A stretch of DNA of 53,368 nt from Acidimicrobiia bacterium (GTDB taxonomy: Bacteria; Actinomycetota; Acidimicrobiia; Spongiisociales; SHLN01), in NCBI GenBank assembly GCA_041619515.1, contig JBFKDW010000002.1, positions 1-53,368 on the forward strand. Direction: 5' to 3'. The notes beneath the pieces were generated by a model. The model did no database searches. It was not told the origin of the DNA and saw only the letters and a list, made by a program, of their open reading frames with translations. Below, one piece after another: positions 17,707 to 26,883 of the stretch (positions are counted from its first letter, which is position 1; each line of letters begins with the position of its first letter). The translations under genes and the position numbers were made by a program.

Positions 17707-17790
17707 GGAATCCCTTTCCTCCGGGACTTGCTGTTGATCGGAGAAATGTATGATACGCCCGCCCGTTTTCCCCCGCCCCGGAGGCATCTC

Positions 17791-18474
17791 GTGGCAAAAC
17801 CCGACGGCTACTTCAAGCGGCCACCGGGCCCGCTCGCCGGGTTCTGGTCGTGGAGATACCTCAACTGGGTGAAGAGCATCAGGCTCGTCACGTCGAAGCG
17901 GGTGCGCAGGGCGTACGAGGCTTTTCCCACCACGGTCCCGATCGGCGTCGAGTTTCCGGAGATAGAGCTCACGACGACCTCCGGCCGCGTCGTCAACACA
18001 CGGGAGTTTCAGGGGAAACGTCACTTCGTGCTCTTCACCGGCGCCATCACCTGACCGCCGTTTCGGCGGCAGTTGTCGCCCATGCATGAGCTGCGGGAGA
18101 AGTATGCCCACCGTGAGGTCGAGTTCCTGGCGATGTACGTGCGCGAGCCCCATGCCGGCGAGCGGGGGTTTCCCGACCACGAGGACCACCGCAGCTTCGA
18201 ACACAAGATGGAGGTCGCTCGCGAGCTCCAACAACTGAAGGACATGACCATTCCGCTGGGGGTCGACGACATGAGCCAGGAGCAGCACGCCCGCCTCGGC
18301 AACCTGCCCAACATGGTGTTCGTCGTTGATCGGCTGGGCCGGCTCGCCTACAGCAACACCTGGTTGCTGGCCGACGATGTCGACTCCGTTCTTGCTCGGC
18401 TCGTCACCGCCGATGATCCCGCTCGACCGATCGAGCCCACGGTCACGACCCGGCACCTCGGTCCCGGCATCTGA
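17791..18474 (+). CDS. Iodothyronine-deiodinase-like selenoprotein (227 aa; Sec88 = TGA 18052-18054)
   Basis: ORFs 17728-18054 and 18073-18474 are in frame. The joined protein reads FTGAIT-U-PPF...YVREPH...VDDM...GNLPNMVFVV, matching deiodinase motifs FGSxTUPPF / YIxEAH / VDxM / YGxxP. GGAGG RBS before GTG 17791; hairpin 3' of the UGA. Confidence 0.88.
18055..18080 (+). promoter_or_regulatory. Candidate bacterial SECIS element
   Basis: UGA-ccgccguuuc-GGCGGC-AGUU-GUCGCC: 6-bp stem with one G-U pair, loop at +17..+20; same geometry as the element at 26675-26700. Confidence 0.78.
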
Positions 18475-18502
18475 AGGCGGCGGCGTCCGCCCGGAGTCGA
18501 GT

Positions 18503-19168
18503 TCAGTCCAGGATTGCGAAGAACCGGGCGGGGGCGCCTTCTCCGCCGGTGATCTTCAGAAACGCCGCAAAGAACAGGAATCGCGAGCCGGCGGGCAGGG
18601 AACCGAAATTGGTCATCGACTGCATGAGGACTGCACCGGAATCGCCGATGATGTGGTGCACGACAAATTCGCTCGCCAGGTAGTGCTCCTTCTTCGCCGA
18701 GCGTTCGGGAAAGCAGTCGAAACCGATCGCCTTGGCGCCGGTCTCTGCCAGCCAGCGGGCGGCCGCCGGCGAACAGGAAGGCGAGTCGATGTAGTAGCGG
18801 GGGAACTCTCCCCATGCCTCATCCGACCACCCGGTGCGCACGAGCACGACGTCACCGTGACGGATCTCTGGAGCCGCCCGCTCGAGGTCGGCGACACCGA
18901 TGTCGTGGTCGGCCGCCACCGGCGTGAGATCGATGAGCACGGCCTCACCACTCGTCCGGTCGAGCGAGACGCTCTCGGCAGTTTCGCCCTCCTCGCGATA
19001 ATGGCCGGTGAAGTCGACGTGCGAACCGGCGTGCAGCGCCATCGTGATCTCGCTCACCATCCAGAAGCCGGGTTCTTTGAAGCGCCGGGAAATGCCGATG
19101 GGTTGATTCACCGACGGAGGGCTGTAGGTGTCCGAACCGATCGGCACGGTCAGATCGACGATTCGCAC
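18503..19168 (-). CDS. Cyclase family protein
   Basis: IVDLT, HAGSHVD, RTGW, GFD, GEGAPARFFA. Confidence 0.88.
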   Translation of the reverse strand: MRIVDLTVPIGSDTYSPPSVNQPIGISRRFKEPGFWMVSEITMALHAGSHVDFTGHYREEGETAESVSLDRTSGEAVLIDLTPVAADHDIGVADLERAAPEIRHGDVVLVRTGWSDEAWGEFPRYYIDSPSCSPAAARWLAETGAKAIGFDCFPERSAKKEHYLASEFVVHHIIGDSGAVLMQSMTNFGSLPAGSRFLFFAAFLKITGGEGAPARFFAILD

Positions 19169-19184
19169 GTCCCTCCTCGGCTCG

Positions 19185-20204
19185 TCAGGCGAAACTCACG
19201 ACCGACCGACCGATGATCGAGCCCTCCCGCAGCCCGTCGAGACCATCGTTCACGGCATCCAGCTCGAACTCGGCCCCGATGATCGGCCGGATGAGGCCGC
19301 GCTCCACCAGTCCAACGGCCTCCAGCAGGTCACCCCTGGTGGATCCCCGTGAGCCCATGATCGCCACCTCGTCGTAGACGAGCCGCATCATCCCCACCGT
19401 CAGCTGCGGTACGAGATACCCGACGACGACAACCCGGCCACCCTTCCGACAGGCCAACACCCCCTGTTCCACCGAGCCCTCGATGCCCACGATGTCGATG
19501 AAGGCGTGCACCCCCAGCCCCTTCGTCAGCTCACGGATCTGGCCGGGGAGGTCGCCGTCGTCCGGATCGATCGACCAAGTGGCTCCCAGCTCCTCGGCCA
19601 GGCTGCGCCGCTCCTTGGTCCGGGCGATGGCGATCACCCTCGCCCCGGCCAGCGCCGCAACCTGCACGGCGATGAGCCCGAGCCCGCCCAGCCCGTACAC
19701 CGCCACGGTCTGGCCGGCCGTGACCCCGGCCCGTTTGAGGACGGCGTGGTAGGGCGAACCGACGGCGTCGGGAATCGTGGCCGCCTCGGCGAACGTGATG
19801 GCGGGCGGGATCTCGATGAGGTTGGCGGCGGGCACGCGTACGTACTCGGCGAGGGCGCCGTCTTGCTCGAGGCCGAGACGGAGCAATCGAGCACAGTAGT
19901 CGAGCTCACCCTTCCGGCAGTACTCACAGGTACCGCACGAGATGTCGAGGCCGACGGCCACTCTCGCTCCCTCGCGGAATCCACTCCCCTCCCCCCCGAG
20001 GGCGACCACCTCACCGGCCAGTTCGTGTCCCAGGATGCGGGGCGTCGTGACCGTCGGAATGGCTCCTTCGATGATCTTGAGATCGGTGCGACAGATTCCG
20101 GCGGCGCCGGTCCGGACGATGACATCGTCGATGGCGGGCTCCGGGTCGGGTACCTCCTGCACCGTCAGGGGCCGGTTGAACTCCTCCAACACCGCTGCTC
20201 GCAT
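19185..20204 (-). CDS. Zinc-dependent alcohol dehydrogenase
   Basis: GICRTD, GHE, CGTCEYC..G...C, GLGGLG. Confidence 0.93.
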   Translation of the reverse strand: MRAAVLEEFNRPLTVQEVPDPEPAIDDVIVRTGAAGICRTDLKIIEGAIPTVTTPRILGHELAGEVVALGGEGSGFREGARVAVGLDISCGTCEYCRKGELDYCARLLRLGLEQDGALAEYVRVPAANLIEIPPAITFAEAATIPDAVGSPYHAVLKRAGVTAGQTVAVYGLGGLGLIAVQVAALAGARVIAIARTKERRSLAEELGATWSIDPDDGDLPGQIRELTKGLGVHAFIDIVGIEGSVEQGVLACRKGGRVVVVGYLVPQLTVGMMRLVYDEVAIMGSRGSTRGDLLEAVGLVERGLIRPIIGAEFELDAVNDGLDGLREGSIIGRSVVSFA

Positions 20205-20349
20205 GGCATCTCCCGTAGCCGCATTCCGAGACTACGGTCGGGACGGCCGCCTCGTCAACAGACCCCGATGATCTGCGCCATGGGCCAGGTTCCGGCCCGC
20301 TCTCGGTTACCGCCTTTGCCGGGCGAGCTCGCTCGGGTCGACGAGCCGC

Positions 20350-21285
20350 CTACGCGTAGGCTTCGACGAGCCACTCGTGCAACCAGGCGGCTGCCTCCCT
20401 GGCGGCGATCTCCAGGTGAGACATGTCGCTGTACATGCTCATGTGCGTGCTCGATTGCTGGACGAACAGCCGCTTCTTGGTGGTCACGATCTCGTTGAAC
20501 GCGGGGATCTCTCGTTCCCACATGGTGAGGTCGTCACCTTCGGCAACGATCATCAAAGTGGGGGTGTCGAGAATCATCGGCAGGTACGGCCGCATGTTGT
20601 ACGCCCACACCCATTCGACCGACTGGATGGTGCTGTAGTGCTCGTGGCGCGGTGCGGTCGTTTCCTTGATCTTCATGAAGATCGGCTTGGTTTCCGGGTG
20701 CGGCCAGGTCACCACCTCGGTCTTGGGGTCACCCGAGTGGGGAATGAAGCCGTGTTCCCCGGTGAGATACCGGTTCTTCCGGTCCGATTCCACGAGTGCC
20801 GTCAGCTCGCGGAATCCGACAGAACCGTGGGCTCGCATCGAGTTGTACCAACCCTCGATCACCGGAATCTGGGACACAACGCACTTGACGCGAGAATCGA
20901 GCGCTCCGACCGCCAGCACGTGACCTCCGCTGTAGGAGATGCCCCACACCGCTATCCGTTCCGGGTCCAGATCTGGCTTGAACTCGTCCAGGTAGGAAAC
21001 GGCGTCGACCGCGCTCCGATAATCGGAGATCTGCATCCACGGGTCGATGTGCTGTCGGGGCTCTCCATCGCTGGCCCCGAAGTTCCGGTAGTCGAAGATC
21101 AGCGCGGCCACACCTACCTCGAGGAAGAACCGGGCGTACTCGGGCATGATGAGCTCTTTCACGTAGCACCACCCGCCGCCCATGATCACCACCGGCCAGG
21201 GGCCTTGGCCCGTGTCCGGCGTGTACAGGTCGGCCCGGAGCATCTGGCCCGGCGTCTCACTTTGGAACTCGACTTCTCGGTGCAT
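20350..21285 (-). CDS. Alpha/beta hydrolase (YcjY/acetyl-xylan-esterase-like)
   Basis: FDYRNFGASDGEPRQ, WGISYSGG, C-terminal Asp and His. Confidence 0.9.
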   Translation of the reverse strand: MHREVEFQSETPGQMLRADLYTPDTGQGPWPVVIMGGGWCYVKELIMPEYARFFLEVGVAALIFDYRNFGASDGEPRQHIDPWMQISDYRSAVDAVSYLDEFKPDLDPERIAVWGISYSGGHVLAVGALDSRVKCVVSQIPVIEGWYNSMRAHGSVGFRELTALVESDRKNRYLTGEHGFIPHSGDPKTEVVTWPHPETKPIFMKIKETTAPRHEHYSTIQSVEWVWAYNMRPYLPMILDTPTLMIVAEGDDLTMWEREIPAFNEIVTTKKRLFVQQSSTHMSMYSDMSHLEIAAREAAAWLHEWLVEAYA

Positions 21286-21466
21286 GGCAGACCTCCTTCA
21301 GACGCCGTGCTCGACCTATCCGGCAAGGATCACCGCGCGCAGGCTAGGCACCGCCGTTTGGGGGCGTCAATGGTGAGGGCGGCTGCCTCGGGACCGGCGC
21401 TCGCCCCGCGACTACTCTCGCACCGGCACCACCGACCTCTGGAAAGCACGCTGACAAGGAGATCCC

Positions 21467-22939
21467 ATGGAACGCTTCCGTCATCGCATCGGTTCGGAGG
21501 ACGTCTCCCCCGCCCTCGGCGAGTATCTCCCGACACTGAATCCGGTCACCGCCCGGCCGTGGGCCGAGATCGGGCGCGGCACCGCCGCGGATGTCGAGCG
21601 CGCTGTGGATGCGGCGTCGACGGCCTTCGCCACCTGGCGGAGCACCTCACCGTCGGAGCGAGCGGCCCTGTTGTGGCGGCTCGGGGAGGTCATCTCCGAG
21701 CACGCCGAGGAACTGGCTCAGCTCGAGTCGCGCGACATCGGCAAGGTCATCCGCGAGATGCGGGGTCAAATGGTGGGGCTGCCCAAGTGGTACCGCTACT
21801 TCGCGAGCCAATGCCACAACCTCGAGGGGTCGGTGATCCCGCTCGATCGGGCATCGATTCTCAACTACACCCGCCGCGAACCGTTCGGTGTCGTCGGCAT
21901 CATTCCGTCGTTCAACAGTCCGGTGCTCCTGACGAGCTTCGCGCTGGCACCGGCGCTGGCCACCGGCAATGCCGCCGTCATCAAGCCATCCGAGCACGCC
22001 TCGACGGCCGTGCTGTTGTTCGCCCGCCTGTTCGACGAGGCAGGCTTCCCCCCCGGTCTTGTGAACGTCGTTACGGGCCTGGGCCCGGAGGCCGGCGATG
22101 CTCTGGTCGGCCATCCCGAGGTTCGCAAGATCGCCTTCACCGGCGGAGTGGAGACCGCCCGGCTGGTGGGAGCCAGGGCGGCGGAAGCCGTCAAGCCGGC
22201 CATCCTGGAGCTGGGCGGCAAATCGGCCAACATCGTGTTCCCCGACGCCGACGTCACTTCGGCGGTCAACGGAATCATCGCCGGCATCTTCGCCGCCGCC
22301 GGCCAGACCTGCCTCGCCGGCTCCCGACTGCTGGCCCACGCCGAGATTGCCGACGAGATCGTCGAACGCATCTCCGACCGGGCCGCGACCATCGTGATGG
22401 GCGACCCGCTGCTGGACGAGACCGAAATGGGACCGGTCGCTCAACCGGGGATTCGCGACCGGGTGAACACCAGGGTCCGGGAGGCCATCGGTGTCGGTGC
22501 CGTAGCCGCCGCCGGAGGAGATTTGGACGCGGTCGGGGACCGGGCCGGATGGTTCTACCCGCCGACCGTGCTCGACAACGTCACCAACGACATGGCCATT
22601 GCGCGCCATGAGCTGTTCGGACCGGTGCTCAGCGTCATCCGCTTCTCCAGCGAGGAGGAAGCGCTCAGCATCGCCAACGACTCGCCCTTCGGGCTGGCGG
22701 CCGGTGTCTGGACCCGTGACCTGAGCCGGGCCCACCGGATGGCCGCCGATCTCGAAGCCGGAACGGTGTGGGTCAATACCTACAGAAGCCTCTCCTACTC
22801 ATCGCCGTTCGGTGGACGCAAGCTGAGCGGGTACGGACGGGAGCTGGGACGGGAAGGTCTCCTCGAGTTCACCCAGACGAAGAGCGTGTGGGTGGAGACG
22901 TCCGAAGAGCCCATGGGCGACCCGTTCGTCCTGCGGTGA
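21467..22939 (+). CDS. Aldehyde dehydrogenase
   Basis: KPSEH, FTGG, LELGGKS, GQTCLAGSR, ELFGPV, VWVNTYR. Confidence 0.95.
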   Translation: MERFRHRIGSEDVSPALGEYLPTLNPVTARPWAEIGRGTAADVERAVDAASTAFATWRSTSPSERAALLWRLGEVISEHAEELAQLESRDIGKVIREMRGQMVGLPKWYRYFASQCHNLEGSVIPLDRASILNYTRREPFGVVGIIPSFNSPVLLTSFALAPALATGNAAVIKPSEHASTAVLLFARLFDEAGFPPGLVNVVTGLGPEAGDALVGHPEVRKIAFTGGVETARLVGARAAEAVKPAILELGGKSANIVFPDADVTSAVNGIIAGIFAAAGQTCLAGSRLLAHAEIADEIVERISDRAATIVMGDPLLDETEMGPVAQPGIRDRVNTRVREAIGVGAVAAAGGDLDAVGDRAGWFYPPTVLDNVTNDMAIARHELFGPVLSVIRFSSEEEALSIANDSPFGLAAGVWTRDLSRAHRMAADLEAGTVWVNTYRSLSYSSPFGGRKLSGYGRELGREGLLEFTQTKSVWVETSEEPMGDPFVLR

Positions 22940-22947
22940 GTCGCGCG

Positions 22948-24291
22948 CTACCGGCCGACGGCTCCGGGCCCCGCCAGAAAGCGGCCGGCGCGTTCGTCGA
23001 CCGGTACACCCTCCTGGGCGACCAGCCGGCCCCGCAGGTACGTGGCCACAGCGCCGCCGACCAGGGTGCGCCCGGCGTACGGCGTCCATCCAGCTTTCGA
23101 GACGACATCCTCGTCCGCCACCGTCCACTCATGGTCCTGGTCGATGAGAACCAGGTCTGCATCGGCGCCCGGGACGATGTGTCCCTTGTGTTGGAGGCCG
23201 TATCGACGGGCAGGCTCTTCGGCGTAGCGGCGGACGACATCCTCATAGGACAGCCGGCCCTGGTGGGTCGCATCGAGGAGAAACGGAAGCGTCGTATCCA
23301 GACCCGGTAATCCGAACGGTGCCTCCCACATGCCGGCGTCTTTCTGGGCACGGGTAGAGGGAGCGTGGTCGGTGGAGACATGGGTCAGGACACCGGCTCG
23401 GAGAAGGCTCCACATGCTGTCCACGTGGGCATCGGTGCGGGCCCGAGCGGGAGGTGTGAATTTGCGGAGCGGGCCTTCCGTGTGCACCTCGTCCTCGCGG
23501 AACGCGAAATACTGAGGGCAGGCTTCGGCTGCCAAATCGGCACCGAGAGAGCGTGCCCACTCGATGATGCCGGCTGCCTCCGGCGTGCTGACATGGGCGA
23601 TCGTCGCCCGGGTGCCGTGGCGGGCCGCCAGAACCCCGGCTACCGCCACCGCCACCTCCTCGGCAGTGCGATTTCTCCATTCAATGAGCAGGCCGTTGTC
23701 GCTTCGGCCCTGTTCTTTGAGCACCTTCTCGGCGCGAGCGGTGATGGCCTCATCTTCACAGTGGATGAGGGCCGCTCCCGCAAAGCCGGCGATGTCGGCC
23801 ATGGCGGCATCGAGTTGAGCAGCGTCGAGCCCGGGTACACCGTGGGTCGTACAGGTGAAGATCTTGAAGAACGTGACCCCCGCCTCCCATAGCTCGCCGA
23901 GGCGGCCGATCCGGTCCGGCCAGGTATGGGCCGCCAGGCCGTAATCGACGTTGGAACGGCCCTCGAGATATCCCCGCTTGTCCGTGAGCTCGGAGACGGT
24001 CCGGATCGGATGGCCGTGGGTGTGCTCGACGATGGTCGTGACCCCGCGTGCGGCCGCCGCCCGGCTTCCGGCAGGGAAGTCCTCCCGCGCCGGGTCGCCC
24101 GGGTCCATCAGATGCACATGGGTATCGACCATGCCGGGCAACACGAGCAGACCGCTGGCATCGATGACGGTAGCCGCCGGCACATCCTCGAGGCCGACGT
24201 GCTCGATCCTCCCGTCTTCGATATAGACGTGGGCCCGCCGCCGCCGGCCGGCGGCGACCACCGTGCCACCCTTGACGGCCAGCTCGCTCAT
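22948..24291 (-). CDS. Cyclic amidohydrolase (allantoinase/dihydroorotase family)
   Basis: PGMVDTHVH, FFKIF, IHCE, AHVS, STDHAP, GADADLVL. Confidence 0.92.
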   Translation of the reverse strand: MSELAVKGGTVVAAGRRRRAHVYIEDGRIEHVGLEDVPAATVIDASGLLVLPGMVDTHVHLMDPGDPAREDFPAGSRAAAARGVTTIVEHTHGHPIRTVSELTDKRGYLEGRSNVDYGLAAHTWPDRIGRLGELWEAGVTFFKIFTCTTHGVPGLDAAQLDAAMADIAGFAGAALIHCEDEAITARAEKVLKEQGRSDNGLLIEWRNRTAEEVAVAVAGVLAARHGTRATIAHVSTPEAAGIIEWARSLGADLAAEACPQYFAFREDEVHTEGPLRKFTPPARARTDAHVDSMWSLLRAGVLTHVSTDHAPSTRAQKDAGMWEAPFGLPGLDTTLPFLLDATHQGRLSYEDVVRRYAEEPARRYGLQHKGHIVPGADADLVLIDQDHEWTVADEDVVSKAGWTPYAGRTLVGGAVATYLRGRLVAQEGVPVDERAGRFLAGPGAVGR

Positions 24292-24301
24292 TCCCGGGCC
24301 G

Positions 24302-25519
24302 TCACAGCATCAGCTTCTCTTCGTACTCGGTCCGCGACAGCACCCGCGCATCGCCCTCGGTCACCAGGCACATGTCTTCGATCCGGACCCCACCGCCGCC
24401 GGGCACATCCGGCACCCACACGAGGGGTTCGATGGCAAACAGCATGTTCGGCTCGAGCTCGTACGTCGTAGCACCGGGCAGGGTCTCACCGATGTAAGGA
24501 GGTTCGTTGGCCCCCATGCCAATTCCGTGCCCGATGAAGAGGCTGAACAAGTGGTCTTCGTAGCCGTATGAGCCGATCTTCTCGGTAATCGCCTCGGCCA
24601 CGTCTCGGTTCGAGTTGCCGGGCCGCAGCTGGTCGATTCCCGCCATGAGGCCTTCGTAGACGGCGGTGTAGATCTCGCGTTGGCGCCGGCTCGCCTTGCC
24701 GACGATGGTGGTCCGCCCGATGTCGGCGAAATAGCCGTTCCACATGGCACCAATGTCGATGAAACACAGATCGCCGTTGCGCATGATCTTGTCCGTGCAT
24801 ATCCGGTGAGGGGGAGACATGTGCTCCCCCGAGGCAACGAAGGGTGTTATGACGTGGGCCATCTCCCCGCCGAGGTAATAGAGCGTCTGCATGGCATCGC
24901 CCGCCACCTCTTGCTCGCGGCGGCCGGCTTTCGTTTCGTCCAGAGCCCGCTGGGTGACGGCGTCACCGATGGCACAGGCCTCCTCGACGATGGCGATTTC
25001 TTCGTCGAGTTTGATCCAGCGTGCTTGCTGCATGATCGCGTCGCCGTCGAGGATTTCCAGGTTCGGGAGGTGCCGGCTGATGGATTCGATGAGAGAGAGG
25101 CCCGCCACATCCATCCCGATGCGGCCATCGGCTATCCCGCGATCTCGCAGCAGTGGGAGGAGGGTCTCGCGCACGAACCCGTCGACCAGCTCGCGTTGTT
25201 CCATGACGGGAATCGGATGCACTCCGGCCAGCCACGGCATGCCGAACGTGGCCTTGTCCAGCTCACCACCCGAACAGAGCAAAACGGGATCCTCCCCCCC
25301 AGCCAGCAAGACGCCGTTCAGCGACGAGCTCTTCCCGGCAATGATCTGGGCTCGGAGCGAGGTGAGGTAGCGAACGTTCTCGTTCTTCCACAGCAAGAGC
25401 CCATCGAGCTGGGAATCAGCCAGCTCCGCCTTGACCTTGCCGATTCGCTTGGTTCGGAGGGCGGTGAAGTCGAAGCGCTCCTCCCAGTCGGCTGCCGCCT
25501 GGCCGCGGCCGTAGCTCAT
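24302..25519 (-). CDS. M24 family metalloenzyme (Xaa-Pro peptidase/creatinase fold)
   Basis: FIDIG, YFADIGRT, GHGIG, IEP, RIED: full D-D-H-E-E ligand set. Confidence 0.9.
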   Translation of the reverse strand: MSYGRGQAAADWEERFDFTALRTKRIGKVKAELADSQLDGLLLWKNENVRYLTSLRAQIIAGKSSSLNGVLLAGGEDPVLLCSGGELDKATFGMPWLAGVHPIPVMEQRELVDGFVRETLLPLLRDRGIADGRIGMDVAGLSLIESISRHLPNLEILDGDAIMQQARWIKLDEEIAIVEEACAIGDAVTQRALDETKAGRREQEVAGDAMQTLYYLGGEMAHVITPFVASGEHMSPPHRICTDKIMRNGDLCFIDIGAMWNGYFADIGRTTIVGKASRRQREIYTAVYEGLMAGIDQLRPGNSNRDVAEAITEKIGSYGYEDHLFSLFIGHGIGMGANEPPYIGETLPGATTYELEPNMLFAIEPLVWVPDVPGGGGVRIEDMCLVTEGDARVLSRTEYEEKLML

Positions 25520-25679
25520 CGCAGAAAAGCCCGGTGGAACCGGCGGGCGTCCCCGCTCGGCGACGGCGAGATCACGATCGGCACGTGCGACTCCCTCATC
25601 GGGTGACCGGAACCGATGCTATCCCATCAGGTTGGGCCCCTCGCCATCCACTTTGCTCGCCGTTCCGTATTCTCTTTGT

Positions 25680-26339
25680 ATGGCTCAGCCCTCTCCTCCC
25701 ATCCAGACGATCGGGCCCCGCGACGACGAGCCCGACGATTCCGCCCCGGAGCGCTCCGGGGCGCTTGGGCTCCTCCTCATCTCGATAGTGCTGTTGCTGT
25801 CGGTGGTTGCCCTGGGATCCGGGTCGGGCGGGATGGAGACCGAATCGGTTGATGAAGAGCGGCGGCTGGATTCCTCACTCCTCCACGATCTCGGCGGACC
25901 GGTCGACGCCGTCGAACAGTTCATGACGGCTCTCAGCTACGGTCAAACTGAGGTGGTGGCCGCAGCGGTCGCAGCCGATGCCGATGTCATCGAGCTCCCG
26001 CTCCTGTCGGCGCCGGCGGAGCAGATTGCAAGCACGATGGCGACATTTCAGGACATCGGCGGCGTCATTCAGATGTTCGGCTGCTCGGCCGACTCGCCGG
26101 CGGTTGATTCGGCAGCGGTGGGAGTCACCTGCTCGGTGGCATACACCAGCGACTTCATTCGACACCTCGATTCCCCTTACCTGCGTGGAACCATGGACTT
26201 CCTGGTTGTCGATGGGCTCGTCGGGCGCGTCCGGGTGGAAATGGAATCACCCCTCGCCGATAAGCGGGCCTTCGACCGGTGGCTGATCGACTTCTACGCC
26301 GAGCGTCTCGCCGCCGTTCGCGACCAGCGCGAGAGCTGA
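25680..26339 (+). CDS. Hypothetical membrane-anchored protein (possible NTF2-like domain)
   Basis: Single N-terminal hydrophobic helix; fills the gap between flanking genes; no recognisable family. Confidence 0.6.
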   Translation: MAQPSPPIQTIGPRDDEPDDSAPERSGALGLLLISIVLLLSVVALGSGSGGMETESVDEERRLDSSLLHDLGGPVDAVEQFMTALSYGQTEVVAAAVAADADVIELPLLSAPAEQIASTMATFQDIGGVIQMFGCSADSPAVDSAAVGVTCSVAYTSDFIRHLDSPYLRGTMDFLVVDGLVGRVRVEMESPLADKRAFDRWLIDFYAERLAAVRDQRES

Positions 26340-26349
26340 GGCGGACCGC

Positions 26350-26883
26350 TCAGGCAGACGCCTTCCCCTCCCCCAGGGAGCGCACCACTGCCAAGGCTTC
26401 TTGCAGATCGGGCTCGATGAGAGCGTCCTCGGACACCCATCGGTACCGAACCACCCCGTCGTGGCCTATCACGAACACCGACCGCTTGGCCACGCCCGAG
26501 TGACCCTTCCAGGCCTCGTATTGGACTCCGTAGGAAGCGGCAACCGTGCCTTCCCAATCGGAAAGCATGGGGAATTGCGCACCGAGTGAGGCGGCAAAAG
26601 CCATTTGAGAGAATGTGGCCGTCACCGCAATGGCGATCGGCTCGGCACCGAAACCTCGGATCTCGTCGACGAGTTGTCCCAACTGGGACAGTTCGTGACT
26701 TCACACGTGACCGAAGTCGAACACGTAGAAGAGCAGCAGGACGGGTCCGCCGGCGGTGAGGTCGTAAAGGCCGATGTCTTCCTCGAACGTCCGGCGCAGC
26801 CGGAAGGCGGGAGCCCCGTCCCCGACGCCGATATGGCCGGACGGAGGCCCGGCATGTGTGGGGCCATGTGGCGAAGGACTCAT
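26350..26883 (-). CDS. Peroxiredoxin-like (AhpC/TSA, AhpE/BCP-type) selenoprotein (177 aa; Sec61 = TGA 26703-26701)
   Basis: ORFs 26701-26883 and 26350-26682 are in frame. The joined protein reads VGDGAPAFRL...LLFYVFDFGHV-U-SHE...FPMLSDW...AKRSVFVIGHDGVVRY, with the UGA at the peroxidatic Cys position. Hairpin 3' of the UGA. Confidence 0.88.
26675..26700 (-). promoter_or_regulatory. Candidate bacterial SECIS element
   Basis: UGA-agucacgaac-UGUCCC-AGUU-GGGACA, with a possible lower stem gucacga/ucgu(c)gac; loop at +17..+20. Confidence 0.8.

What the first reader, a model, noticed from the sequence alone, without database searches (positions are those of the whole stretch)
18052..26703. Shared recoding signal: identical SECIS-like architecture behind both in-frame UGAs
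Seen: two unrelated genes on opposite strands, 8.6 kb apart, both read UGA + exactly 10 nt + 6-bp stem + AGUU loop. They are UGA-CCGCCGUUUC-GGCGGC-AGUU-GUCGCC (18052-18080, +) and UGA-AGUCACGAAC-UGUCCC-AGUU-GGGACA (26703-26675, -). The stem sequences differ but both pair, while cAGUUg at +16..+21 is invariant. It forces Gln-Leu with a TTG codon, which is unusual in GC-rich DNA. Known: bacterial SECIS elements lie just 3' of the UGA and present an apical-loop G to SelB, and they vary by lineage. Inference: this is the SelB recognition motif of this lineage, distinct from the E. coli fdhF loop, and can serve as a probe for further hidden selenoproteins.
Basis: partly seen in the sequence, partly recalled or inferred. 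Interest (0 to 1): 0.9.

Follow-up and report, generated by a model that had tools for sequence, protein, structure and literature searches.

The report
Two ordinary selenocysteine hairpins, not a lineage code
Both in-frame UGA codons are followed by real selenocysteine-insertion hairpins that fit the published bacterial model, but the shared AGUU loop belongs only to these two gene families and is not a special signal of this bacterium.

Summary
UGA 18052-18054 (+) lies in a deiodinase-like gene and UGA 26703-26701 (-) in an AhpC/TSA peroxiredoxin-like gene. Each is followed by 10 nt, a 6-bp stem and an AGUU loop.

These are the only 2 of 60 such hairpins in the 3.1-Mb genome with TGA at that distance. 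The genome has tRNA-Sec, selA, selB and selD.

The element is kept in 23 of 23 Prx-like orthologues and 7 of 7 deiodinase-like orthologues of the order. Leu is always the rare TTG codon, and one stem pair covaries. Cys homologues lack Gln-Leu and the hairpin.

Both hairpins meet every criterion of the published bacterial SECIS consensus, with spacing at its lower limit of 16 nt.

- Six other selenoprotein genes of this genome (fdhA-like, selD, two DUF3179, an AhpC-TSA_2 gene and a TlpA-like gene) use other loops. Five of them are E. coli-like GGUC-type loops, conserved across the order.
- What all eight share is a G followed by U or G in the loop, as in E. coli.
- As a probe, the exact pattern and a covariance model found no convincing new gene in this genome or in two samples of 151 genomes.

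Verdict: new members of a known kind, of low interest.

The parts
17728..18474 (+). Deiodinase-like selenoprotein gene (thioredoxin fold), Sec at codon 109 counted from TTG 17728. The true start may be ATG 17746. It ends at a genuine UGA stop, 18472-18474.
   Evidence: Translation with TGA=U. Pfam T4_deiodinase 5.4e-14 (52.5 bits, cut-off 27), also AhpC-TSA and Redoxin, all spanning the UGA. Seven loci (G000 plus 6 orthologues) keep the TGA.
18052..18054 (+). In-frame UGA read as selenocysteine (motif GAIT-U-PPF).
   Evidence: It aligns to Cys (TGT) in 3 more distant homologues of the order, L046, L047 and L051.
18065..18080 (+). SECIS upper stem-loop 1: 6-bp stem plus AGUU loop, 10 nt after the UGA; G and U at positions 21-22 counted from the U of UGA.
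   Evidence: Hairpin energy -9.0 kcal/mol. 97.6% of cells paired in 7 sequences, with G-U/G-C/A-U exchange at one pair. The rival hairpin is only 73.8% paired and does not covary.
26350..26883 (-). AhpC/TSA-family (peroxiredoxin-like) selenoprotein gene, Sec at codon 61. It ends at a genuine UGA stop, 26352-26350.
   Evidence: Translation. Pfam AhpC-TSA 6.1e-25 (88 bits) and Redoxin. Found in 23 of 201 genomes of the order, all with the TGA.
26701..26703 (-). In-frame UGA read as selenocysteine (motif DFGHV-U-SHEL).
   Evidence: It aligns to Cys (TGC/TGT) in 11 Gemmatimonadota homologues.
26665..26699 (-). SECIS 2: upper stem-loop 26690-26675 (6 bp plus AGUU loop) on a lower helix predicted from 26699 to 26665.
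   Evidence: MFE equals centroid, -18.0 kcal/mol, z -2.2. Upper hairpin alone -8.7 kcal/mol. The core CCAGUU plus two following G's is invariant in 23 of 23 orthologues; one stem pair covaries: U-A 7, U-G 4, A-U 3, G-C 3, G-U 1.

Best explanation
These are two canonical bacterial SECIS elements. Each is a hairpin inside the coding sequence just after a UGA. It is bound by the C-terminal winged-helix part of SelB, which then delivers Sec-tRNA(Sec) to the ribosome so that the UGA is read as selenocysteine.

The host genes belong to two known selenoprotein families of the thioredoxin fold: deiodinase-like and AhpC/TSA (Prx-like).

The AGUU loop 16 nt after the UGA is a version fixed within each of these two families in this order (called Acidimicrobiia in earlier scan notes, not checked here). 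The same SelB also reads GGUC-type loops in at least five other genes of the genome. Its likely determinant is therefore a G-U (or G-G) in a small loop on a G+C-rich stem, as in E. coli.

Shown here: the anatomy, the conservation, the codon bias, the covariation, the Sec machinery and the other SECIS elements. Inferred: SelB binding and actual Sec insertion.
For: Sec machinery in the genome:
- tRNA-Sec at C51.
- selB 319 bits and selA 419 bits, adjacent on C59.
- selD with its own in-frame TGA.
- SelB aligns end to end with E. coli SelB (5lzb, E 1.4e-69) and carries the SelB-wing_3 domain.

Fit to the published bSECIS consensus (review PMC13188914, section 5 passages). The criteria are a loop of 3-9 nt, a stem of 4-16 bp, G in the first two loop positions followed by G or U, 16-37 nt from UGA to loop, and MFE at or below -7.5 kcal/mol. 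Here the loop is AGUU, the stem 6 bp, the spacing 16 nt, and the energies -9.0 and -8.7 kcal/mol.

Conservation:
- 23 of 23 Prx-like orthologues keep the TGA and the CCAGUU core. Of these, 19 have Leu, always TTG, and 4 have Phe TTC.
- 7 of 7 deiodinase-like orthologues keep the TGA, the AGUU loop and the stem.
- Paired cells and covariation score exceed all 500 shuffles and all slid registers in the Prx set and in the joint set.

Cys homologues lack Gln-Leu, AGTT and the hairpin: 11 Gemmatimonadota Prx and 3 deiodinase-like.

The genuine UGA stops of both genes have no such hairpin.

Other SECIS elements in the same genome:
- fdhA-like: loop GGUCU.
- selD: loop GGUCC.
- two DUF3179 genes: loop GGUCC.
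- AhpC-TSA_2 gene: loop GGUCA.
- TlpA-like gene: loop AGGCU.

These loops are conserved in the order: selD 30 of 30 loci read, fdhA-like 25 of 25, and DUF3179 16 of 16 Sec forms, two of them with one stem mismatch.
Against: - No experiment: Sec insertion and SelB binding are inferred.
- Site 1's 49-nt fold is not better than shuffles (z -0.6), and a rival hairpin dominates its ensemble. That rival is not conserved.
- The deiodinase-like set has only 7 sequences and no double-sided compensatory change.
- Gln-Leu-Gly is also conserved as protein, so part of the nucleotide conservation is confounded with coding.
- In the Prx set, 12 of 22 distinct sequences do not pair at the outermost stem position. 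Four sequences need a 5-nt loop register.
- Why two families share the same loop and spacing is not explained; it may be convergence or chance.
Confidence: 0.9

Rival explanations
1. One reading: cAGUUg at a fixed distance is the SelB recognition motif of this lineage, different from E. coli, and marks all its selenoprotein genes.
For: Identical loop and spacing in two genes without detectable sequence similarity. The loop is invariant in 30 of 30 sequences.
Against: - Six other selenoprotein genes of the genome carry other loops. These include selD and fdhA-like, the two most widespread selenoprotein families.
- Those loops are conserved across the order.
- The exact pattern occurs nowhere else in the genome.
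- Model R1 scores 41.0 and 33.1 bits on the two sites; the next hit is 14 bits, E 4.3.
Confidence: 0.03
2. The shared Gln-Leu (CAG-TTG) reflects protein constraint, or descent of both thioredoxin-fold genes from one ancestor. The hairpin would then be incidental.
For: Both proteins match AhpC-TSA and Redoxin, with Sec at the equivalent position before the first helix. Gln-Leu-Gly is conserved as protein in the Prx set.
Against: - Leu is TTG in 26 of 26 Leu-bearing sequences, although TTG is 7.6% of Leu codons.
- Cys homologues have other residues at these positions.
- The third base of the codon before Gln is always C, and the pair formed by the first base of the Ser/Thr/Ala/Ile codon with the third base of the Gly codon covaries.
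- The stems of the two families are entirely different in sequence, yet both pair.
Confidence: 0.03
3. The AGUU tetraloop 16 nt from the UGA is a functionally distinct compact SECIS subclass, for example with a different insertion efficiency. It would have been reached independently by two genes and be read by the same SelB.
For: - The two genes share the shortest UGA-to-loop distance among the 8 SECIS elements of the genome (16 nt, against 17-33 nt).
- They have a 4-nt loop without the closing N1-N2 pair seen in the GGUCN and AGGCU loops.
- The spacing sits at the lower limit of the published range.
Against: - The elements still fit the published consensus, so no new class is needed.
- Eight Prx orthologues are best read with a 5-nt loop AGUUC or AGUUG (my reading).
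- There are no functional data.
- Two families are too few to separate convergence from chance.
Confidence: 0.15

Closest known systems
Bacterial SECIS consensus model (bSECISearch model of Zhang and Gladyshev, as summarised in the review PMC13188914, section 5 and the legend of Fig 2)
   Same: In-ORF hairpin directly after the Sec-UGA. Loop of 4 nt (allowed 3-9), stem of 6 bp (allowed 4-16), G at loop position 2 followed by U, 16 nt from UGA to loop (allowed 16-37), energies -9.0 and -8.7 kcal/mol (limit -7.5).
   Different: The spacing sits exactly on the lower limit. The loop has no N1-N2 closing pair. Otherwise nothing differs.
E. coli fdhF SECIS (17-nt upper stem-loop 11 nt after the UGA, with U17, G23 and U24; review PMC8659212, passages)
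   Same: A small upper stem-loop at a fixed short distance from the UGA, with a G-U dinucleotide in the apical loop, read by a full-length SelB homologue.
   Different: Here the spacer is 10 nt rather than 11, G-U falls at positions 21-22 rather than 23-24, no bulged U is predicted, and the loop is AGUU rather than GGUC. The fdhA-like gene of this same genome has GGUCU with G-U at positions 23-24, as I count from the sequence.
Known prokaryotic selenoprotein families: peroxiredoxin / Prx-like and deiodinase-like (PF00837), listed in PMC13188914 and PMC1794560
   Same: Pfam matches span the UGA, and Sec sits at the redox-active Cys position.
   Different: - The Prx-like protein has Gly, not Thr or Ser, three residues before Sec. 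PMC1794560 defines Prx by a T/SxxU/C site.
- The deiodinase-like protein has U-P-P-F, whereas the review's table lists UxxC for that family.

Membership tests
Bacterial SECIS (published consensus model) | Lies immediately 3' of an in-frame UGA that aligns to Cys in homologues | tested here: met
   Cys codons stand at the aligned position in 3 deiodinase-like homologues and 11 Prx homologues.
Bacterial SECIS (published consensus model) | Apical loop of 3-9 nt on an upper stem of 4-16 bp | tested here: met
   A 4-nt loop and 6-bp stem at both sites.
Bacterial SECIS (published consensus model) | G in one of the first two loop positions, usually followed by G or U | tested here: met
   Loop A-G-U-U, invariant in 30 of 30 sequences.
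Bacterial SECIS (published consensus model) | 16-37 nt between the UGA and the apical loop | tested here: met
   10-nt spacer plus 6-nt stem arm gives 16 nt, the lower limit. The alignments of all 30 sequences have no gaps.
Bacterial SECIS (published consensus model) | Folding energy of -7.5 kcal/mol or lower | tested here: met
   -9.0 and -8.7 kcal/mol for the 16-nt hairpins.
Bacterial SECIS (published consensus model) | The genome encodes tRNA-Sec, SelA, SelB and SelD | tested here: met
Bacterial SECIS (published consensus model) | Binds SelB and drives Sec insertion at the UGA | not testable with these tools
   Needs reporter, labelling or binding experiments.
E. coli fdhF-type SECIS | Bulged U (U17) in the 5' arm and a GGUC-type loop, 11 nt after the UGA | tested here: not met
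   No bulge in the predicted stems, loop AGUU, spacer 10 nt. Only the loop G-U is shared.
   Six other genes have GGUCN or AGGCU loops. The exact pattern and model R1 find no further site.
Peroxiredoxin (AhpC/TSA, PF00578) | Pfam match above the cut-off, with Sec at the peroxidatic Cys position | tested here: met
   88 bits against a cut-off of 26. Sec aligns to Cys of the ...FTPV-C-TNEL... homologues.
Peroxiredoxin (AhpC/TSA, PF00578) | T/SxxU/C active-site motif (PMC1794560, legend passage) | tested here: not met
   Gly stands three residues before Sec in 23 of 23 Sec forms. I therefore call it Prx-like.
Deiodinase-like protein (PF00837) | Pfam match above the cut-off, spanning the Sec | tested here: met
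   52.5 bits against a cut-off of 27, residues 42-208.

The most novel reading that the evidence does not exclude
The AGUU tetraloop exactly 16 nt after the UGA is a compact SECIS subclass. It would have arisen independently in two thioredoxin-fold genes and be read by the same SelB that reads GGUC loops. That would show that this SelB needs only purine-G-U in a small loop, and that loop type and distance can be traded against each other, perhaps to tune Sec insertion efficiency.
Probability: 0.2. Interest if true: 0.3.

Novelty: new member of a known kind. Interest (0 to 1): 0.2.

Why it matters
Practically, two genes that gene callers would cut at the UGA should be annotated as single selenoproteins. 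The set of eight SECIS elements gives a small, internally controlled picture of what one SelB accepts in this little-studied group: loops AGUU, GGUCN and AGGCU, at 16 to 33 nt from the UGA.

A preprint on a sister order, Actinomarinales (10.64898/2026.04.03.716425, passages read), reports that the Rfam SECIS models find nothing there. Family-level alignments like these could therefore seed usable models.

None of this changes how Sec recoding is understood. It also warns against turning one family's SECIS into a lineage-wide probe.

Tried and rejected
- Rfam at gathering thresholds found nothing in the window. There is no tRNA in the window.
- A codon-usage screen for read-through ORFs was too noisy: 361 and then 142 candidates, and site 2's downstream score was only 0.13. 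I used it only to spot candidates by eye.
- A relaxed hairpin rule fits 2,476 of 74,246 TGA trinucleotides, so it is useless alone. The rule was a spacer of 7-16 nt, a stem of at least 5 bp, and a loop of 3-7 nt with GU at the first or second position. With ORF filters 28 sites remain, and I read 6 of them as selenoprotein sites.
- searched with a wrong reading frame of gene 1 by my mistake. Its hits only reflect DNA similarity and were not used. One search repeats the search correctly.
- Model R1 in 151 genomes of the order gave 16 hits weaker than the orthologues (E 4.3e-4 to 0.042). I inspected 7 (L078-L084), and none had protein-like open flanks. The other 9 were not inspected, and none was tested by homology.
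- Model R1 in a sample of 151 genomes of the class hit 6 genomes, all of this order, and none of about 114 genomes from other orders. Strict filters were in use.
- The search for related loci returned only Cys-type Prx homologues from Gemmatimonadota and one doubtful archaeal hit, L105, which I dropped.
- L045 is a fragment that does not cover the Sec region and was dropped.
- Literature: a search for 'SECIS' with 'AGUU' gave two irrelevant papers (listing only). I therefore found no paper describing an AGUU-loop SECIS in the held library. The original bSECISearch paper was not available to me, and I did not look at any supplementary tables.
Full report
**1. The observation**

- On the + strand: TGA 18052-18054, a 10-nt spacer, a 6-bp stem (one G-U pair), loop AGUU, ending at 18080.
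- On the - strand: TGA 26703-26701, a 10-nt spacer, a perfect 6-bp stem, loop AGUU, ending at 26675.

Reading TGA as Sec joins the flanking frames into two proteins.
- One has 248 residues (17728-18474) and matches T4_deiodinase (5.4e-14), AhpC-TSA and Redoxin.
- The other has 177 residues (26883-26350) and matches AhpC-TSA (6.1e-25) and Redoxin.
- In both, the Pfam matches span the UGA.

Both genes end at a second, genuine UGA that has no comparable hairpin.

BLASTP finds no similarity between the two proteins. They do share the thioredoxin fold families, so 'unrelated' is too strong.

**2. Is it more than chance?**

The window is part of contig C2 of a 3.10-Mb, 146-contig genome of 66.5% G+C.
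- Both strands hold 25,043 hairpins with a 6-bp stem and 4-nt loop. Sixty of them have the loop AGTT.
- Only two of those 60 have TGA 13 nt before the stem, and they are these two sites.
- TTG is 7.6% of Leu codons, and CAG-TTG is 7.2% of Gln-Leu pairs, in long ORFs.

**3. Sec machinery**

- tRNA-Sec is on C51.
- selA and selB are adjacent on C59, both above their curated cut-offs.
- selD carries its own in-frame TGA.
- SelB aligns over its whole length with ribosome-bound E. coli SelB (5lzb, E 1.4e-69). It has the C-terminal SelB-wing_3 domain.

**4. Conservation in relatives**

Prx-like gene. It was found in 23 of 201 genomes sampled from the order, G000 included.
- All 23 have TGA at the aligned position, followed by an ungapped stretch in which the core CCAGUU and two following G's are invariant.
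- Nineteen have Gln-Leu, always with TTG. Four have Gln-Phe (TTC).
- One stem pair is formed by the first base of the Ser/Thr/Ala/Ile codon and the third base of the Gly codon. It covaries: U-A 7, U-G 4, A-U 3, G-C 3, G-U 1.
- Paired cells (82.6%) and the covariation score exceed all 500 shuffles and all slid registers.
- The outermost pair is weak: 12 of 22 distinct sequences are unpaired there. Four sequences fit better with a 5-nt loop.

Deiodinase-like gene. It matched in 14 of 201 genomes.
- Seven loci (G000 and six orthologues at 53-73% identity) keep the TGA, the AGUU loop and the stem. 97.6% of cells pair, and G-U, G-C and A-U exchange at one pair.
- The rival hairpin right after the UGA of site 1 pairs in only 73.8% of cells and shows no covariation.
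- Three more distant homologues have Cys and no hairpin.
- Three others are a separate Sec subfamily (FGSFT-U-PYC) with different downstream sequence. One fragment did not cover the site.

Eleven Cys-type Prx homologues from Gemmatimonadota MAGs have other residues in place of Gln-Leu and no hairpin.

The Gln-Leu with TTG is therefore tied to the Sec forms. It is imposed by the RNA.

Two of the 23 Prx rows come from genomes flagged unpublished (G004, G195). The result does not depend on them.

**5. Comparison with the published model**

The review PMC13188914 (section 5 and the legend of Fig 2, passages read) gives the bacterial SECIS consensus:
- a loop of 3-9 nt on a stem of 4-16 bp;
- G in the first two loop positions, mostly followed by G or U;
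- 16-37 nt from the UGA to the loop;
- a folding energy of -7.5 kcal/mol or lower.

Both sites meet every criterion: AGUU, 6 bp, 16 nt, and -9.0 and -8.7 kcal/mol. They sit exactly on the lower spacing limit.

The review PMC8659212 (passages) describes the E. coli element as a 17-nt stem-loop 11 nt after the UGA, with U17, G23 and U24 as the fixed bases. Here the stem-loop has 16 nt, lies 10 nt after the UGA, and has G-U at positions 21-22 with no bulge.

Prx, Prx-like and deiodinase-like proteins are listed as known selenoprotein families.

**6. Test of the 'lineage motif' idea**

Other selenoprotein genes of the same genome were found by screening read-through ORFs. They were confirmed by Pfam and folded.

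| Gene | Place in G000 | Loop | Distance from UGA to stem |
|---|---|---|---|
| fdhA-like molybdopterin oxidoreductase (CNRT-U-HAPS) | C4:57847 | GGUCU | 12 nt |
| selD | C8:28233 | GGUCC | 26 nt |
| DUF3179 paralogue 1 (W-U-PLC) | C22:35937 | GGUCC | 13-14 nt |
| DUF3179 paralogue 2 (W-U-PLC) | C34:13145 | GGUCC | 13-14 nt |
| AhpC-TSA_2 gene (FG-U-LTC) | C27:27423 | GGUCA | 14 nt |
| TlpA-like gene (WAPH-U-PTC) | C61:5873 | AGGCU | 9 nt |

These loops are conserved in the order.
- selD matched in 114 of 121 genomes. All 30 loci read have TGA and the core CGCAG-GUN-YUGCG, with a compensatory G-C to A-U change.
- The fdhA-like gene matched in 54 of 81 genomes. All 25 loci read have TGA and an invariant CGGUCUGG, with compensatory stem changes.
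- DUF3179 matched in 25 of 81 genomes. Of 25 loci read, 16 are Sec forms with the GGUNC hairpin (two with one mismatch). Nine are Cys forms without it.

So this SelB reads E. coli-like loops in most of its clients. What the eight elements share is a G followed by U or G in a small loop.

**7. Test of the 'probe' idea**

- The exact pattern finds nothing else in the genome.
- Covariance model R1, built from the 30 sequences, scores the two sites at 41.0 and 33.1 bits in the whole genome. The next hit has 14 bits, E 4.3.
- In 151 genomes of the order, every hit down to E 2.2e-4 lies in a Prx-like or deiodinase-like orthologue. Of 16 weaker hits I inspected 7 and saw no protein-like open frame. 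Nine were not inspected.
- In 151 genomes sampled from the class, only genomes of this order were hit.

**8. Context and lineage**

The neighbouring genes are ordinary metabolic genes: histidinol dehydrogenase, a cyclase, a zinc alcohol dehydrogenase, an aldehyde dehydrogenase, an amidohydrolase, an M24 peptidase and two S15 peptidases. There is no selenium island.

Earlier notes of this scan call the genome Acidimicrobiia. I did not check this. A preprint on Actinomarinales (10.64898/2026.04.03.716425, passages) reports Sec machinery there and no hits with the Rfam SECIS models.

**9. Verdict**

The hairpins are real and the recoding reading is right. They are ordinary members of the known bacterial SECIS class, sitting in known selenoprotein families.

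The shared AGUU loop at the minimal distance is a mild curiosity, due to convergence or chance. It is neither a lineage-specific SelB code nor a useful probe.

Noticed in passing
G000 contig C70, TGA at 476 (+), outside the window (locus L091): A DUF411 (PF04214) ORF has an in-frame TGA in the motif PG-U-GCC-SGW. The fold downstream is only weak. It may be a further selenoprotein. The terms DUF411 and PF04214 do not occur in the main text of the review PMC13188914.
   Followed up: partly
window 26701-26720 (-) and loci L012-L033: All 23 Sec forms of the Prx-like protein have Gly three residues before Sec (DFG-x-x-U). The Cys homologues have the usual Thr (AFT-P-V-C). The catalytic Thr of peroxiredoxins is missing, so the enzyme may not be a standard peroxidase.
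   Followed up: no
window 18052-18066 (+); loci L048-L050: The deiodinase-like protein has U-P-P-F with no Cys three residues after Sec, although the review's table lists UxxC for this family. A second Sec subfamily with U-P-Y-C occurs in three genomes of another family of the order.
   Followed up: no
window 18472-18474 (+) and 26350-26352 (-): Both selenoprotein genes also end in UGA. The same codon therefore means Sec once and stop once in each mRNA. The stop-UGAs lack a SECIS-like hairpin.
   Followed up: yes
window 18055-18069 (+): A 6-bp hairpin with a UUU loop directly after the UGA of site 1 competes with the SECIS stem in this genome (centroid fold). It is not kept in the orthologues.
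   Followed up: yes
G000 C8 near 28233 (-) and loci L106-L113: In the window's own genus, selD has a second conserved 8-bp hairpin 7 nt after the UGA, upstream of the GGUN SECIS hairpin. The two form a tandem pair with a strong fold (z -3.7).
   Followed up: no
G011 contig C19 (loci L012, L039): In a genome of the same genus the two selenoprotein genes lie on one contig about 17 kb apart, on opposite strands, as they do here. A DUF3179 pair sits on the same contig.
   Followed up: no
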